This document shows, piece by piece, positions 14,622 to 49,078 of a DNA stretch of 64,000 bases (the first letter of the stretch is position 1; every line of letters begins with the position of its first letter). The position numbers were made by a program, and so were the translations under genes. Below the pieces are notes generated by a model. It had not been told where the DNA came from. It saw only the letters and a program-made list of their open reading frames with translations, and did not search any database. This stretch comes from a virus (taxonomy: Duplodnaviria > Caudoviricetes): the IMG/VR virus record IMGVR_UViG_3300010355_000898, positions 64,001-128,000 of that record; one strand, written 5' to 3'.

Positions 14622-14930
14622 ATGTTGTTGAGAACACTGTTTACGCTCACATCAGCACTGGTTGCAACTGTGAGTGCATGGACAAGCTACAAACTCAATT
14701 GCGGACACAGTTGGGCATTTTGGCTGACATGGTCAATTGGCTGCATCCCAGTTTGGACATTGTGGGCAAAATTGAGCAACAATATTCTTCTTGATGCAAT
14801 CATATATGATAGTGTTGTCATCGCAATTTTTGCTGTTGTCACAATGCATCTGACCGGAAAACAGATATCACTTGAACATATGCTTGGCATCATGATGCTC
14901 ATCATGGGAATTGTATTGGTGAATACATGA
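14622..14930 (+). CDS. Small 4-TM membrane protein (SMR/EamA-like)
   Basis: Four hydrophobic segments; MLGIMMLIMGIVLV C-terminus. Confidence 0.55.
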   Translation: MLLRTLFTLTSALVATVSAWTSYKLNCGHSWAFWLTWSIGCIPVWTLWAKLSNNILLDAIIYDSVVIAIFAVVTMHLTGKQISLEHMLGIMMLIMGIVLVNT

Positions 14931-44832: not shown

Positions 44833-45226
44833 CTGCGCCATTTGATCTTTCCATCACTGTGTATATTGAGCACAAATTTGTCAGATTTGTCTGCATGAAA
44901 TAGCAGAATGGATAGATAAACATTCCGTTCATAAACTCCATTCACAGATCTCATCCTGAGCATTCTCATCATTCTCCTATATGATTCTGAACCCTGCATC
45001 AGTTAAATGTACAACATGACAGTGCATGTTGCACTGCACTCAAGAATGTCCCAGAACAATTCTGCAAATTGCGATGTTGTCCAATCAATATGTGGGCAGA
45101 ACAGTTATCCTGCAGTGTCCTGGAATGATTGGGATGGATGTTTGTACACGGTGTTGTTAACCGATCTCCAGATGTGTATGGGTTCCTGAAAGGATTCAGA
45201 ACGCGAGAGAACATTTTCGTATACAA

Positions 45227-45553
45227 TCACCAACTGATCACAATCGTGATTGAAGATTTGTTGTCAAGATCAATTTTGGAAATTTCTGTTATCCCATAGC
45301 CAAGTCCAATGAGATGATCACAGATCAATTTGTACAGTGATTTGTTGCACACATATGTATCATACACAGTGTACGTGACATTGTTTGTGGTTGATTTTCT
45401 GATTGCATCAGATATGTTGGCAATGTTGTGCTCAATCAACTCTTCCAACTGTTTGTGATTGATTTCATTCAATTTTGTCTTCATTTCTTTTGCAACTGGC
45501 AATGCATGTTTCAGCGTCATCCTGTCAAAAATTTCTTGAATCTGTTCTTCCAT
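45227..45553 (-). CDS. Hypothetical protein
   Basis: 108 aa ORF with GAGG SD and upstream promoter-like motif. Confidence 0.6.
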   Translation of the reverse strand: MEEQIQEIFDRMTLKHALPVAKEMKTKLNEINHKQLEELIEHNIANISDAIRKSTTNNVTYTVYDTYVCNKSLYKLICDHLIGLGYGITEISKIDLDNKSSITIVISW

Positions 45554-46555
45554 CTCAAAACCTCTCTCTCAATTGTGATTTTAAACTGTACTCAGAGTCT
45601 GTTGCACCACATGATGAGAAATGTTAACATGTTCATGTCATCAGTGATCAGAAATGGTCATGAACGCGGGCAAAACAGGTCCAGAATGATCAGAGAACAG
45701 AGACCGGTGCAATGAGACAAAATTTTTCATCATCATTCGGTGCAGACTATACTATCTTATAGCGGCAATTGCCAAAGCTATCTGCCGTCAGAACAGATTG
45801 ATATCAACAGAAGGACATCAGCAGACCACATCTCTGAACAGATTGTAAATGTGGGCGTAAAAGATATCGGTAACAAAAATTTGGGTCAATTTGCAAATGT
45901 TCTGTCACATGCAGAGAACACGATTCACGTTGATGGGCCAAACAGTATTGAAGATATCATAACATCTGTTGCATCGAAAACACAACCAGACGTATGCCTA
46001 TTGGGTCCAATGGACAGTGCAAAATACAGAATTCATAAACGTGACCATTCCAACGAGAAGATACCAATCATCATTGAGGATAACAGCACAGTGTATGCTA
46101 TGCTATAGCAAACTCTGCACCGATGGCACTGCATATGTTGGCAGATTGGGAACATTGCAGTTGTGGGTCCAGAATGACAGTGTATTTGAAATTGATGAAG
46201 ATTGTGGACTGTTCCAGGCAGTTGGTTATGATGTTAGCAGAGTACGTTTCAGATCACGTGTAAAGATTGAGTGCACAGATCTGAGTTCATGGACAAGGAT
46301 CATCTTTGATTCAACAGATGATTCAGCAGAAACAGATCATGATTGAGAACAGTGAAAGAGAGAGGTGTTCAGAACCGGTGCAGGTTCATTGAGTTGCCAG
46401 ATCTTGTGCACAGTGGCAGAATGGTGCACATTTCAATCTGGGGAGGGCTGTGACGTGGTGCGCACTCCAGGAGGATTGGGAGGGAATTCAGGTATGCAAA
46501 ATTTGGTTGATGGGTGTGGGGATGACGGGAACCACTGCCGGGGTGTCGTGGAGTG

Positions 46556-46758
46556 AAAATGGGGGTTGGGACGGTCTACGAGGGTGGAACAGTGTATCTT
46601 GCCCCATTTTTTCCCGGTGTTTTTCACTGATGCATCATCGATGGCCTTATTTTACCTTCTGTTTACATCCACTCTGTATTCAAAGATATTCTCGCGTGAT
46701 TTCTCATATGTCCCACCCTCGTAGACTGAACATCCGCAGCATCAGTGAAAAACACCGG
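46556..46758. repeat. Interleaved inverted repeats in a GC-rich non-coding island
   Basis: 46572-46591 pairs with 46709-46728 (18/20); 46614-46633 pairs with 46739-46758 (20/20); 46556-46564 pairs with 46602-46610. Confidence 0.9.
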
Positions 46759-46759
46759 C

Positions 46760-46791
46760 CCGGGTCTCCGTTGCCCCGTATCTGGGACTGA
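46760..46791 (-). repeat. 32-bp junction repeat, copy 1
   Basis: 29/32 identical to 48119-48150; 22-bp core gttgccccgtatctgggactga exact. Confidence 0.9.
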
Positions 46792-47865
46792 GCGTAATGA
46801 TTCACAATTCAGCCAACATCACACCGAGCAAACCCATCAGTCCAAATGTACAACGTCCAACAGCAACAGTACTCTTCAAGTGTACAATTCTCATGAAATT
46901 TCAACCGTCTTTTCCTGTTAATCCTGCAATACCTGTTGTATGACATACTGCTGCTCCCAGCTCGCAATTAGGTTTTTATTTTTTACCTTCTGGGACAACT
47001 CCACCATAACCATTATTGCATATGAGCAATTGCCAACAGTGCTCTCCAAAAATATGGATTCCACAGTGTCCCAATTTTCTTACATTGTGAATCCGGATAT
47101 ATTGACCATATGTCACCGTTGATGTTCTCCCATCATTCCAATCACTGCACACAGTGATCTGCACAAACTCCGGGAATCTTCTCCAGTTCCCCTGTAGCCG
47201 GAGAGTGTCTCACAACCGGCTCACATATCTTCTTGACAATTTGGAACACACTGTGCACATAAAAAATGCGTCCTGTGCCACGGGACGGATAAGATTGACA
47301 CATCCACACTGATAAAATTGCAATCTGATGACATTGTCAACCTGTTGGATGATGGGTAGTGCTGGTGAGACATGTCCTGGATTCCTCATCCTGAGGATGG
47401 CTGTCAATCTTGTGACATGTTCCTGTTCAGTTGCAGTCAGCGCTGACATTTGGGATCTCCCTTGATGTAGAGTCTGCGTGCAACAAGATCAAGGTCTGAT
47501 CTGACAATGGCAACCGCTGCACAACCACACCTGTTCACTTCCAATATTGGAATGTAATGGATATCCGATATCAAGACAAGGTCCACTCTGTCAATTTGGG
47601 ATCCTGGTTTCCTCTGTTCGAGCAGAGTGATCAGTCTACCAATGTGCTGTTCAGTTTGCATGGATATCTCTCATGGCAAGATGATTGATCTGATTGTTGG
47701 TGAACTGTCTGCACGCTGTGCCATCAAGCCTCAAACAGACCGTGCACAGATGATGTTTGCAGAGTTCTGTGAATTTGTGTTCATCAAATTCGAGAAGAAA
47801 ATGGCGACCTTTTTCTGATCTATGCTTGAGAATATTGCCAATGTTTATGAACTGTCTGTAAGTCA

Positions 47866-48084
47866 TCATTTTTTCATGTACACTCTGTACACTCTGCTTA
47901 CAGAGCCATTTTGACCAATCTTAATGTACCATTCAACATTGTGTGAACCATTAATGGCCACGTGGCATGCAGAAATCATCACAATGATTGATGTATATAC
48001 CTTTGTTCAAAGGGCGCTGATTCAAGATCTCTCCAATTCTGCAATGAATTCACATCATAATATGATGCACTGTTTGTAGGTCAT
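47866..48084 (-). pseudogene. MTY-family pseudogene broken over several frames
   Basis: MTYKQ / CRIGEILNQRP / WYIKIGQNGSVSRV separated by frameshifts and stops. Confidence 0.7.
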
Positions 48085-48118
48085 CAATCATTCCATTGTG
48101 ATCAGCATATATGCCTAT

Positions 48119-48150
48119 CCGGAACTCAGTTGCCCCGTATCTGGGACTGA
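48119..48150 (-). repeat. 32-bp junction repeat, copy 2
   Basis: Begins 7 nt after the stop of 48158-48331. Confidence 0.9.
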
Positions 48151-49078
48151 AACATTGTCAGCGTTTGAATGTACATTCTCTGTCAACATCTCCATTACAA
48201 TTGATCTGAATGTACCAATCCCTTTGCGCGCCGAATATATCCTGTGTACAATCATAATAGTAATCTACCCCCTGATCTGGACGACGATTTCTCAATGTCT
48301 CACCAATGTTCCTGTACTGTCTGTATGTCATTCTTTTTCATCGCAAAAAATCAATTGCATGTCTGTAAACAAAACCATCCTCGCGTACTCTGATGCACCA
48401 ACAGAAACGATTGAAATATCGTCTTTCAACACCGTTCTTCAACATTGCTGCAATGTAAGCAGTTTTCTGCTGTGTCGGATTCATCTTAGCACCAATTCTG
48501 CAATACTGTTCATAGGTCATTGTGTGCTCTCCCACCATGTAACCCTGTACACAGTTCCAAGCCAATGAATCCTGATATGCCACGGACTTTCATTAATGAA
48601 AAGTTTCAGATCACAATCTTGGTATGGAACAGAACCATCTGCTATTTCTGAACGCTGATTCAGGATCTCTCCAATTCTGCAATATTGATTGTACGTCATA
48701 AAATCACTTTTTGGGATCTGTTTCCCAGAGATCTCTTGGTACTCGTATTACATTACCACAATTTTTGATCCTTAAAATCAAATTGTGTTGGTCGAATTCA
48801 GTCATGGTACCTAGGTACTGTGTGTATTCACTTGTGTATTCACAGAATGCATCACAACGTGCATTCAGAATTTTTCCTATGCGATTATATTGCCCAAGTG
48901 TCATCAAGAGTTCTCCACGCATCTCCACATTTGTGAACAACAAGCACCAATTTTTGGTAATTGAAATCAGCAATGTTAAAACGTTGATCCACAAGCTTCA
49001 CATGGCGGCGTCTGTTGATGAGTACACCCAACCTTACAAAATGTTCATAAACAGCCCGGGACTGCAACAATTCTCGGT

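What the first reader, a model, noticed from the sequence alone, without database searches (positions are those of the whole stretch)
46365..46800. GC-rich non-coding island with interleaved (pseudoknot-order) 20-bp inverted repeats
Seen: A 46572-46591 / A' 46709-46728 (18/20) and B 46614-46633 / B' 46739-46758 (20/20) occur in the order A-B-A'-B', not nested. A third pair, C 46556-46564 / C' 46602-46610, encloses A. The + strand switches from G-rich to C-rich near 46595, and there is no convincing ORF. Inference: a switchable structured RNA/ssDNA, or paired protein-binding sites (replication origin, packaging/terminus or recombination site). It lies between the two miniprotein arrays and directly abuts junction repeat copy 1.
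Basis: partly seen in the sequence, partly recalled or inferred. Interest (0 to 1): 0.75.

Follow-up and report, generated by a model that had tools for sequence, protein, structure and literature searches.

The report
Conserved folded spacer ending phage operon
The 450-base gap between two arrays of tiny genes in this giant sewage phage is a real, conserved non-coding element with two interlocked 18-20 base-pair helices and the most cytosine-rich RNA tract of the genome; it most likely marks and protects the end of a long phage transcript, but its function has not been tested.

Summary
Three assemblers give the identical sequence, and two other strains (L052, L053) carry the same repeats, so it is not a misassembly.

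All four long arms are unchanged in those strains, apart from the end pair of A/A'. The linkers beside A' carry 6 changes in 9-12 bases, with no change in length. The core 46455-46700 is 98% identical, against 81-90% in the flanks. No reading frame shows protein-level constraint.

The left half is the most G/C-skewed 120-nt window of the 269.5-kb genome. On the minus strand this gives C 46% and G 10%. Strand-specific wobble changes weakly favour a minus-strand RNA.

In the variant strains minus-strand genes flank the island on both sides, and no phage promoter lies between them. My best reading (0.4) is a cis-acting RNA module at the 3' end of the array-2 operon, made of stable long-range helices, a Rho-loading-type tract and a pause hairpin.

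I found no support for an origin, a terminus or a DNA inversion. A second island in the same genome has a 21/21 repeat with the same 105-nt spacer. The scan has noted similar architectures on other phage DNA (e1-3377723, e1-5468720); I did not test those.

The parts
46350..46358 (.). Left boundary of the conserved island. Homology with strains L052 and L053 resumes here. To the left, those strains carry different DNA.
46398..46442 (-). Hairpin H1. The lower stem is 46398-46404 / 46436-46442 and the upper stem is 46405-46411 / 46424-46430, with a variable 12-nt loop. It is a candidate pause or 3'-end hairpin downstream of the C-rich tract.
   Evidence: Four one-sided substitutions keep pairing on the - strand (C-G>U-G, A-U>G-U, U-A>U-G, U-G>U-A) and break it on the + strand. 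Fold energy is -16 kcal/mol, z = -2.0.
46455..46600 (-). Near-invariant tract, extremely C-rich and G-poor on the - strand (a G-run cluster on the + strand). It looks like a Rho-utilisation (rut) site.
   Evidence: G 55 / C 12 per 120 nt, the genome's extreme, and 11 G-runs per 160 nt against a mean of 0.94. The best 78-nt window has C 36 / G 8, ratio 4.5. Each variant strain differs at 5 of 246 positions across the whole core 46455-46700.
46556..46610 (.). Helix C/C' (AAAATGGGG / CCCCATTTT) enclosing arm A. It is terminator-like (A-tract, G/C stem, T-tract) but has a 37-nt loop.
   Evidence: One disruptive change in L052 (46562 G>T). It did not pass the terminator scan.
46574..46591 (.). Arm A of the 18-bp long-range helix.
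   Evidence: Invariant in 3 strains. The single mismatch is a G.U wobble on the - strand and an A.C mismatch on the + strand.
46614..46633 (.). Arm B of the 20-bp perfect long-range helix.
   Evidence: Invariant in 3 strains and unique in the genome.
46672..46685 (-). Small 5-bp hairpin inside the 105-nt loop (- strand CUUUG-AAUA-CAGAG).
   Evidence: 46683 A>G in both variants turns a - strand U.G into C-G; on the + strand it turns A.C into G-C.
46701..46709 (.). Hypervariable linker patch beside A'. L052 differs at 6 of 9 positions, with no length change.
46709..46726 (.). Arm A'.
   Evidence: 46710-46726 is invariant. The end pair (46709) is lost in both variants.
46727..46738 (.). 12-nt linker between A' and B'. 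L053 differs at 6 of 12 positions, with the length kept.
46739..46758 (.). Arm B'.
   Evidence: Invariant.
46760..46791 (-). 32-bp junction repeat, copy 1 (copy 2 is at 48119-48150). It lies between the last array-2 stop codon and arm B'. Logan contigs of two other strains break here.
46809..46943 (-). Last miniprotein gene of array 2 (MSYNRYCRI...). Its stop codon is 46809-46811. The island is its 3' untranslated region.
   Evidence: About 81% nucleotide identity to L053.
45704..46373 (+). Two-gene + strand cassette (45740-46108 and 46095-46346). It is present in this strain and absent from L052 and L053. The direct repeat ACCGGTGCA flanks it at 45703-45711 and 46374-46382.

Best explanation
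The island is a conserved non-coding, cis-acting RNA module on the minus strand: the 3' untranslated end of the array-2 transcript, which starts at a phage promoter near 50.6 kb.

Proposed order of events, all inferred:
1. Ribosomes leave the RNA at the stop codon 46809.
2. The RNA first folds into very stable long-range helices: b:b' (20 bp, -35 kcal/mol) and a:a' (18 bp with one G.U, -34 kcal/mol). These form either alternately or together as a long-stem pseudoknot.
3. Next comes about 140 nt of unstructured RNA with 46% C and 10% G. This is the kind of tract on which termination factor Rho loads.
4. Hairpin H1 follows, where the polymerase would pause.
5. Termination, or attenuated read-through into array 1, happens around 46350-46400.
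6. Exonucleases trim the C-rich tail back to the helices, which then protect the upstream mRNA. Alternatively, a double-strand RNase cuts in the roughly 20-bp helices.

Shown here: the element is real, non-coding, conserved, and attached to the 3' end of array 2. Also shown: the helices, their conservation, the composition extreme and the absence of internal promoters.

Inferred only: that the minus-strand RNA is the active form, that Rho or a nuclease is involved, and that the helices protect the mRNA.
For: - The repeats are real and far beyond chance.
- Three assemblers give identical sequence, and two further strains carry the repeats.
- The arms are invariant. The linkers beside A' change at 6 of 12 and 6 of 9 positions without any indel. 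The core is 98% identical against 81-90% in the flanks.
- No frame shows purifying selection, and codon scores are poor.
- On the - strand 98.4% of helix cells pair, against 94.0% on the + strand. Four wobble-compatible one-sided changes fall in H1, the A mismatch is a G.U, and the small hairpin goes from U.G to C-G.
- In L052 and L053 the island sits between - strand genes. It stays linked to the last array-2 gene, while the DNA on its left is swapped.
- The phage promoter class GTGAA-N18-TA(G/A)AAT, derived, is present at about 50.6 kb on the - strand. It is absent from the island and from the variant flanks.
- The island holds the most extreme G/C skew and G-run density of the genome. The - strand 78-nt C/G ratio is 4.5, where RhoTermPredict's top class is above 2, and a hairpin follows within 150 nt (PMC6407284).
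- The A-only and B-only folds are nearly isoenergetic, at -63.2 and -65.7 kcal/mol.
- Island 2, in a + strand operon, shows one compensatory U-A>C-G change and a + strand wobble change.
- A distant relative has a 22/22 helix that closes 120 nt of local hairpins right after a stop codon.
Against: - There are no transcript data.
- With only three strains, no compensatory double change falls in A, B or C.
- The strand preference rests on about 5-6 substitutions from perhaps 3-4 events. It disappears when all RNAalifold pairs are counted: 6 kept and 7 broken on the + strand, 7 kept and 5 broken on the - strand.
- The whole-island MFE is no better than shuffles on either strand (z = -0.1 and -0.6).
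- Rho sites are normally not conserved base for base, so 98% identity of the C-rich tract is not explained.
- Neither the interleaved order nor the shared 105-nt spacer follows from this model.
- The H1 loop has 12 nt, outside the 4-8 nt used by RhoTermPredict.
- Helix C takes a disruptive change in L052.
- In island 2 the 21-bp helix carries a U.U mismatch in every variant strain that covers both arms (3 of the 4).
- The host is unknown, so the presence of Rho and RNase III is unknown. The phage contig encodes no RNase III.
Confidence: 0.4

Rival explanations
1. A trans-acting or 3'-UTR-derived small RNA. The near-invariant core is cut out of the transcript, for example at the roughly 20-bp helices. 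It then acts elsewhere, for instance with its many CCC/CCUCC motifs pairing to G-rich ribosome-binding sites, or as a partner of a phage RNA-binding or RNA-repair protein.
For: - 98% conservation of a 246-nt core is more than a terminator needs.
- The helices are long enough for double-strand RNase processing.
- The same genome already holds other unusual ncRNAs, according to earlier unverified notes.
- RNA-repair genes are present: RtcB, and a cREC and MoxR-type ATPase 3.3-5.8 kb away.
- The closing-stem-plus-loop design recurs in island 2 and in L049.
Against: - The island has no promoter of the phage's class and no intrinsic terminator.
- There is no Rfam match.
- The contig has no Ro/TROVE partner.
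- The arms have no complementary target of 13 nt or more elsewhere in the genome.
- There are no relatives outside this one phage species.
Confidence: 0.2
2. A DNA-level element. The arms would be paired protein-binding or recombination sites: an invertible segment, a cassette-exchange hotspot, or an R-loop or G-quadruplex-type replication origin that uses the G-run cluster.
For: - The perfect 20-bp arms are conserved as sequence.
- The centre-to-centre spacings of 135 and 125 bp are close to whole helical turns (my arithmetic).
- The left edge of the island is a cassette-swap junction flanked by the direct repeat ACCGGTGCA.
- Contigs of other strains break at the adjoining junction repeat.
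- The genome's densest G-run cluster would favour R-loops for rightward transcription.
Against: - The 269.5-kb contig has no serine or tyrosine recombinase and no reverse transcriptase.
- The contig is only an estimated 74% complete, so a recombinase gene could lie outside it.
- The segment has the same orientation in all 3 strains and 5 assemblies.
- The arms are unique and there are no iterons.
- Cumulative GC skew turns near 37 kb and 53 kb of the window, not at the island.
- The only sigma-70-like promoter pointing into the G-runs loses its -10 box in the variants.
- The wobble pattern and the compensatory change in island 2 point to RNA.
Confidence: 0.15
3. Protein-coding after all. One of the frames that stays open encodes a small protein: the 63-aa Cys-rich + ORF 46365-46556, the 113-123-aa + ORF 46450-46791, or the 30-49-aa - ORF ending at 46663. 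The repeats would then be incidental or would regulate its mRNA.
For: - All three frames stay open in all three strains, even across the hypervariable patches and a compensated 1-nt deletion.
- Gene callers called the 63-aa ORF.
- The patches vary without changing length.
- A GGAGG motif lies 9 nt upstream of an internal ATG at 46493.
Against: - Most substitutions are non-synonymous in every frame.
- Codon scores are -0.11 to -0.44, against about 0 for real genes.
- The 113-aa product is 7% Trp and 6% Cys, typical of wrong-frame translation.
- Conservation runs unbroken through the 63-aa ORF's stop codon.
- There are no Pfam or PHROG hits, and no homologs beyond the one cluster.
- In island 2 the comparable ORF loses its start codon in 4 of 5 strains.
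Confidence: 0.07
4. No present function. The island would be a mosaic recombination junction whose uniformity reflects a recent sweep or gene conversion, with repeats left over from past template-switch events.
For: - L052 and L053 are 100% identical over 313 nt left of the island, yet differ at about 35 positions inside it. Patch alleles reassort between strains.
- The element is confined to one phage species.
Against: - Conservation is fine-grained: invariant arms lie directly beside linkers with about 50% changes. A sweep does not produce that pattern.
- Two long repeats co-occur with the genome's extreme composition.
- There is a second island with the same 105-nt spacer.
Confidence: 0.1

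Closest known systems
Rho-dependent terminators (rut site plus downstream pause site), followed by exonuclease trimming back to an upstream stable structure
   Same: An untranslated, unstructured tract of more than 78 nt follows directly after the last stop codon of an operon. It is C-rich and G-poor (C/G 4.5). A hairpin lies within 150 nt downstream and stable helices lie upstream. The criteria are from PMC6407284. The trimming step is from my own knowledge of 3'-end mapping studies.
   Different: rut sites are not normally conserved base for base. This one is preceded by two interleaved 18-20-bp long-range helices, which no described Rho terminator needs. Rho dependence is untested and the host is unknown.
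RNase III processing stalks in phage polycistronic mRNAs (T7 early R sites, lambda sib and N-leader) and rRNA precursor stems
   Same: The element has an intercistronic position and double-stranded RNA of about two helical turns (20 bp perfect; 18 bp with a G.U). As in rRNA processing stems, the two strands of each helix lie more than 100 nt apart. The T7, lambda and rRNA facts are from my own knowledge.
   Different: T7 sites are local hairpins with internal loops. Here two helices are interleaved, no cleavage is shown, and the phage contig encodes no RNase III.
PeSL promoter/stem-loop cassettes of T4-type phages (Arbiol 2010, PMC2839356; Comeau 2014, PMC4122927)
   Same: Both sit in a hyperplastic region of small variable genes in a T4-like phage. 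Both lie at a junction where cassettes are swapped between strains. Helix C has the A4-G4-loop-C4-T4 shape reported for the nt-1/KVP40 stem-loops.
   Different: PeSLs are short, occur many times per genome and contain a promoter. The island's arms are unique, it has no promoter of this phage's class, and it is about 450 nt long. The adjoining 32-bp junction repeat is the better PeSL analogue.
H-type and long-range RNA pseudoknots, including exonuclease-resistant viral RNAs
   Same: The helix order is 5'-S1, 5'-S2, 3'-S1, 3'-S2. The linkers vary freely in sequence but not in length.
   Different: Stems of 18 and 20 bp with loops of 12, 75 and 22 nt are far longer than in known pseudoknots. Whether both helices form at once is untested, and threading makes it topologically demanding (my inference).
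Invertible DNA switches (invertons, e.g. fimS, Hin/Gin/Cin)
   Same: Perfect inverted repeats of 20 bp flank a short segment that holds a weak sigma-70-like match.
   Different: There is no recombinase in the contig and no alternative orientation in any assembly. The promoter match is no better than chance.

Membership tests
Any Rfam 15 family | Covariance-model match at or near the gathering score | tested here: not met
   The window gave no hit at gathering thresholds. In 46200-47000 the best hit had E = 0.43, far below its gathering score. Island 2 and L049 also gave no hit.
Rho-dependent terminator | Untranslated tract of at least 70-80 nt that is C-rich, G-poor and unstructured (C/G > 1) | tested here: met
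   On the - strand, 46498-46575 has C 36 / G 8 (ratio 4.5). The 120-nt window has the largest G/C difference in the genome. The tract is mostly unpaired in the - strand fold.
Rho-dependent terminator | RNA polymerase pause hairpin within 150 nt downstream | tested here: inconclusive
   H1 lies 13-57 nt downstream and shows wobble-preserving changes. Its loop is 12 nt, outside the 4-8 nt used by RhoTermPredict.
Rho-dependent terminator | Termination depends on Rho (bicyclomycin-sensitive) | not testable with these tools
   There are no transcript data and the host is unknown.
Intrinsic terminator | G+C-rich hairpin with a 3-8 nt loop followed by a T-run | tested here: not met
   No sites were found in 45500-47500. 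Helix C has a 37-nt loop.
RNase III processing site | About 20 bp or more of double-stranded RNA | tested here: met
   B:B' is 20/20. A:A' is 18 bp with one G.U on the - strand.
RNase III processing site | Cleavage by RNase III | not testable with these tools
   The phage contig encodes no RNase III. The host enzyme is unknown.
PeSL cassette | Promoter joined to a stem-loop and repeated at many gene junctions | tested here: not met
   The arms are unique in the genome. No GTGAA-N18-TAnAAT promoter is present. Sigma-70-type matches are no more frequent than in shuffles.
MITE / REP-type repeat element | Many copies sharing terminal inverted repeats | tested here: not met
   It is single-copy. 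It has no sequence similarity to island 2. Matches in public collections were at chance level only.
Inverton / site-specific inversion switch | A recombinase gene and both orientations present in the population | tested here: not met
   PF00239 and PF00589 are absent from the contig, which is an estimated 74% complete. One orientation appears in 3 strains and 5 assemblies. Reads were not available.
Replication origin or packaging terminus | Iterons or an AT-rich unwinding element, a skew inflection, read-end pile-up | tested here: not met
   There are no repeated short motifs. The skew extremes lie elsewhere. Read ends were not testable.
Y RNA / YrlA-type RNA | Closing stem bound by Ro60/Rsr (TROVE), plus a match to RF00019 or RF02553 | tested here: not met
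   There is no TROVE gene in the contig and no Rfam match.
Group I intron (P3-P7 pseudoknot order) | Match to the intron core model, and interruption of a gene | tested here: not met
   RF00028 gave no hit. The flanks are a stop codon and unrelated genes.

The most novel reading that the evidence does not exclude
The two interleaved 18-20-bp helices form together as an unusually long-stemmed, threaded pseudoknot: an RNA 'lock' at the 3' end of a phage operon. It would stop exonucleases, or toggle between two nearly isoenergetic states to gate read-through into the next gene array. It would also be one member of an undescribed class of jumbo-phage intercistronic elements, each built as a closing helix of about 20 bp around a 105-120-nt domain. 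Island 2 of this genome, L049, and perhaps the elements noted elsewhere by this scan would belong to the same class.
Probability: 0.12. Interest if true: 0.75.

Novelty: new variant of a known kind. Interest (0 to 1): 0.45.

Why it matters
Giant phages carry long arrays of tiny, fast-evolving genes, and little is known about how their transcripts are punctuated. This island is a conserved, strongly structured spacer that stays fixed to the end of one such array while the neighbouring genes are swapped and diverge.

If it is a Rho-type terminator with a protective or switchable double helix, it would show how these phages separate expression classes without canonical terminators. It would also give a concrete element to test by Term-seq and structure probing. 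If the two helices really interlock, it would extend the known range of RNA pseudoknots.

As it stands, the function is unproven and the element is known from a single phage species.

Tried and rejected
- **Rfam.** Searches at gathering and permissive thresholds on the island, island 2 and L049 gave nothing. No tRNA or tmRNA was found.
- **Exact-arm scans of IMG/VR and JGI metagenomes.** Only chance single matches in unrelated contigs turned up. The four metagenome hits are coding regions of unrelated proteins.
- **Six-frame-anchored searches with the 113-aa frame.** No relatives in IMG/VR or GTDB genomes.
- **Protein database with the 63-aa frame.** Only its own cluster came back.
- **Phage GenBank blastn.** No match.
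- **Distant relatives.** I reached them through the MoxR-type ATPase (about 50% identity). They show no similarity to the island (nhmmer) and no comparable G/C extreme.
- **Whole-island MFE z-scores.** Not significant. The significant z-scores of the 145-nt B element only restate the 20-bp stem.
- **Sequence alignment of island 1 against island 2.** No better than shuffles.
- **T4-type promoter motifs.** Early-type matches are not enriched, and TATAAATA is almost absent. I therefore derived the phage's own promoter class. It is not in the island.
- **'GTGAAAA' inside arm B.** It looked like that promoter's -35 box, but no -10 box follows at the right distance, so I dropped the idea.
- **Recombinase, reverse transcriptase, RNase III and TROVE.** All absent from the contig. 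The MVP_shoulder search is uninformative, because its control rang nowhere.
- **Junction repeat as a hairpin.** Weak and not conserved.
Full report
**What is there**

The window is bases 64001-128000 of a 269.5-kb IMG/VR contig of a T4-like jumbo phage, estimated 74% complete.
- B 46614-46633 / B' 46739-46758 is a perfect 20-mer pair with 105 nt between the arms.
- C 46556-46564 / C' 46602-46610 is 9/9 and encloses A.
- The order is A-B-A'-B'.

A genome-wide scan finds only 12 inverted repeats with at least 16 matches and a 20-400-nt spacer. Block-shuffled genomes give 0-2, with at most 18 matches. A and B are two of those 12, so chance is excluded. The arms occur nowhere else in the genome. 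Only the adjoining 32-bp junction repeat (46760-46791) recurs, at 48119-48150.

**Not an artefact**

An ENA MEGAHIT contig and a Logan contig are 100% identical to the window over 45000-48500. I used the ORFs that gene callers had placed in the island as handles in the protein collection. That recovered two further strains from independent samples:
- L053 (SRR26638140) is 92% identical over 46358-46946.
- L052 (SRR26638149) is 93% identical over 46350-46779.

Both carry the interleaved repeats in the same order and orientation.

**Conservation pattern**

- In the three-strain alignment the core 46455-46700 differs at only 5 of 246 positions per strain (98%).
- 46358-46454 is 81-90% identical.
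- The neighbouring miniprotein gene is about 81% identical.
- Arms A, B, A' and B' are invariant, except for the end pair of A/A'.
- The 12-nt linker between A' and B' has 6 changes in L053.
- The 9 nt before A' have 6 changes in L052.
- Neither patch changes in length.
- L052 and L053 are identical to each other for 313 nt to the left of the island, yet differ at about 35 positions inside it.

So the variation is concentrated in the linkers and the left flank, and selection acts at fine scale on the arms and the core.

**Coding?**

Frames of 63 aa (+), 113-123 aa (+) and 30-64 aa (-) stay open in all strains. Against coding:
- In every frame most substitutions change the amino acid.
- A codon model trained on the phage's long genes scores them -0.11 to -0.44, against about 0 for real small genes.
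- Conservation runs straight through the 63-aa frame's stop codon.
- There are no family hits.

I treat the island as non-coding, with a residual 7% for a small protein.

**Context**

On the right, the last array-2 gene (minus strand) stops at 46809. On the left, this strain has two plus-strand genes that end at 46346, so here the island lies at a convergent junction. In L052 and L053 that plus-strand cassette (about 45704-46373) and the 108-aa gene are missing. In this strain the direct repeat ACCGGTGCA flanks the cassette. In the variants the island lies between minus-strand genes on both sides. The island stays attached to the 3' end of array 2 while the DNA on its left is exchanged.

I derived the phage's own promoter class, GTGAA-N18-TA(G/A)AAT, often with TG before the -10 box, from intergenic regions. 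This fits earlier notes on the phage's split sigma factor. A good copy lies on the minus strand near 50.6 kb, upstream of array 2. None lies in the island or in the variant flanks, on either strand. The default transcript across the island is therefore a minus-strand read-through RNA.

**Which strand?**

I counted the five named helices on both strands.
- 98.4% of cells pair on the minus strand and 94.0% on the plus strand.
- The four one-sided changes in the lower stem of hairpin H1 (46398-46442) are all wobble-compatible on the minus strand and break pairs on the plus strand.
- The single mismatch in A:A' is a G.U on the minus strand.
- A small hairpin at 46672-46685 goes from U.G to C-G.

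This favours a minus-strand RNA, but it rests on few events. When all RNAalifold-predicted pairs are counted, the two strands do not differ. There is no compensatory double change in A, B or C, because the arms never vary. Helix C takes one disruptive change in L052.

**Composition**

The left half of the island is the most G/C-skewed 120-nt window of the whole genome: G 55 / C 12 at 46469-46588. It also has 11 runs of three or more G per 160 nt, against a genome mean of 0.94. On the minus-strand RNA this is 46% C and 10% G. The best 78-nt window has a C/G ratio of 4.5, well above the highest class (above 2) of the published Rho-terminator predictor. That predictor also asks for a pause hairpin within 150 nt downstream (PMC6407284). 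H1 sits there, though its loop is longer than the predictor allows.

**Energetics**

The arm duplexes are worth -33.8 kcal/mol (A) and -34.9 kcal/mol (B) on the minus strand. Nested folds that use only A or only B are nearly isoenergetic, at -63.2 and -65.7 kcal/mol. The RNA could therefore toggle between the two, or form both helices as a pseudoknot with loops of 12, 75 and 22 nt. The length-conserved, sequence-free linkers fit a geometric constraint. Two stems of nearly two turns each would need threading, and this is not shown.

**Analogues**

The genome scan turned up a second island at genome 135435-135581 (L055:1936-2082), between two plus-strand genes. It has a perfect 21/21 repeat with exactly the same 105-nt spacer. 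Its right arm overlaps the left arm of a local 19-bp hairpin, so those two helices exclude each other.

The two islands share no sequence similarity. Among four variant strains of island 2:
- the apparent 51-aa ORF loses its start codon;
- an inner hairpin shows one compensatory U-A to C-G change;
- the local hairpin shows one plus-strand wobble change and one repaired mismatch;
- the 21-bp helix carries a U.U mismatch.

A distant relative (L049, a 325-kb contig) has a 22/22 helix that closes 120 nt of local hairpins just after a stop codon. Long closing helices around 105-120-nt domains may therefore be a recurring intercistronic design in these phages. With four long repeats, the chance that two share a spacer is roughly 1-2% (my estimate).

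**Rejected readings**

- No Rfam family matches.
- There is no intrinsic terminator, and sigma-70-type promoter matches are at chance level.
- No serine or tyrosine recombinase, reverse transcriptase, RNase III or TROVE gene is in the contig.
- No inversion is seen in any assembly.
- The cumulative GC skew turns near 37 kb and 53 kb of the window, following gene orientation, and not at the island.
- No relatives exist outside this phage species in IMG/VR, GTDB genomes, JGI metagenomes or the protein collection.

**Verdict**

The island is a real, conserved, non-coding structured element. It is most likely the RNA 3' end module of the array-2 operon on the minus strand: stable long-range helices, a Rho-loading-type tract and a pause hairpin. 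My confidence is 0.4. A processed regulatory RNA is second at 0.2, and DNA-level sites are third at 0.15.

It is a new variant of known kinds of phage intercistronic RNA signals. The interlocked 18-20-bp helices, the base-for-base conservation of the C-rich tract and the shared 105-nt spacing remain unexplained.

The scan has noted similar interleaved or stem-closed GC-rich islands in other uncultured phages (e1-3377723, e1-5468720). I did not test those.

Noticed in passing
L055:1915-2161 (genome 135414-135660, about 7.4 kb beyond the window's end): A second intergenic island. It has a 21/21 inverted repeat (1936-1956 / 2062-2082) with the same 105-nt spacer as B/B'. Its right arm overlaps a local 19-bp hairpin (2071-2089 / 2125-2143). 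CCTGGGTCAA occurs three times direct and once inverted. Variant strains show one compensatory pair and loss of the apparent ORF's start codon.
   Followed up: partly
L049:5443-5606: A distant relative (325-kb contig) has a perfect 22-bp helix that closes 120 nt of several local hairpins, starting 10 nt after a stop codon. It has no Rfam match.
   Followed up: partly
window 45703-45711 and 46374-46382: The direct repeat ACCGGTGCA flanks a 670-bp two-gene plus-strand cassette. The cassette is present in this strain, and strains L052 and L053 carry about 230 bp of unrelated DNA in its place. This looks like a cassette-swap junction at the island's left edge.
   Followed up: partly
whole genome; examples at window 53133, 73503, 73854, 74194, 75120 (+) and about 50.6 kb (-): A clear phage promoter class, GTGAA-N18-TA(G/A)AAT, often with TG before the -10 box. 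At least 15 intergenic copies are concentrated at 50-97 kb in window coordinates.
   Followed up: partly
whole genome (G000): The T4 late-promoter octamer TATAAATA occurs once in 269.5 kb. Composition-matched shuffles give 20-37 per strand, so it is strongly avoided, and late promoters here must look different.
   Followed up: no
window 46701-46709 and 46727-46738: Two short linker patches exist as discrete alleles that differ at about half their positions with no length change. The alleles reassort among three strains that are otherwise 98-100% identical nearby. These look like multi-nucleotide replacement events rather than point mutations.
   Followed up: partly
L050:14408-14431 / 14692-14715 (and L051): A perfect 24-bp inverted repeat covers the ribosome-binding sites and start codons of two divergent genes in a distant relative. 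The two genes therefore share identical translation start regions.
   Followed up: no
window 46779/46780: Logan contigs from two other samples (L052, and L054 coming from the other side) both end inside the 32-bp junction repeat. This fits a repeat-induced branch in the assembly graph, or alternative adjacencies in the population.
   Followed up: no
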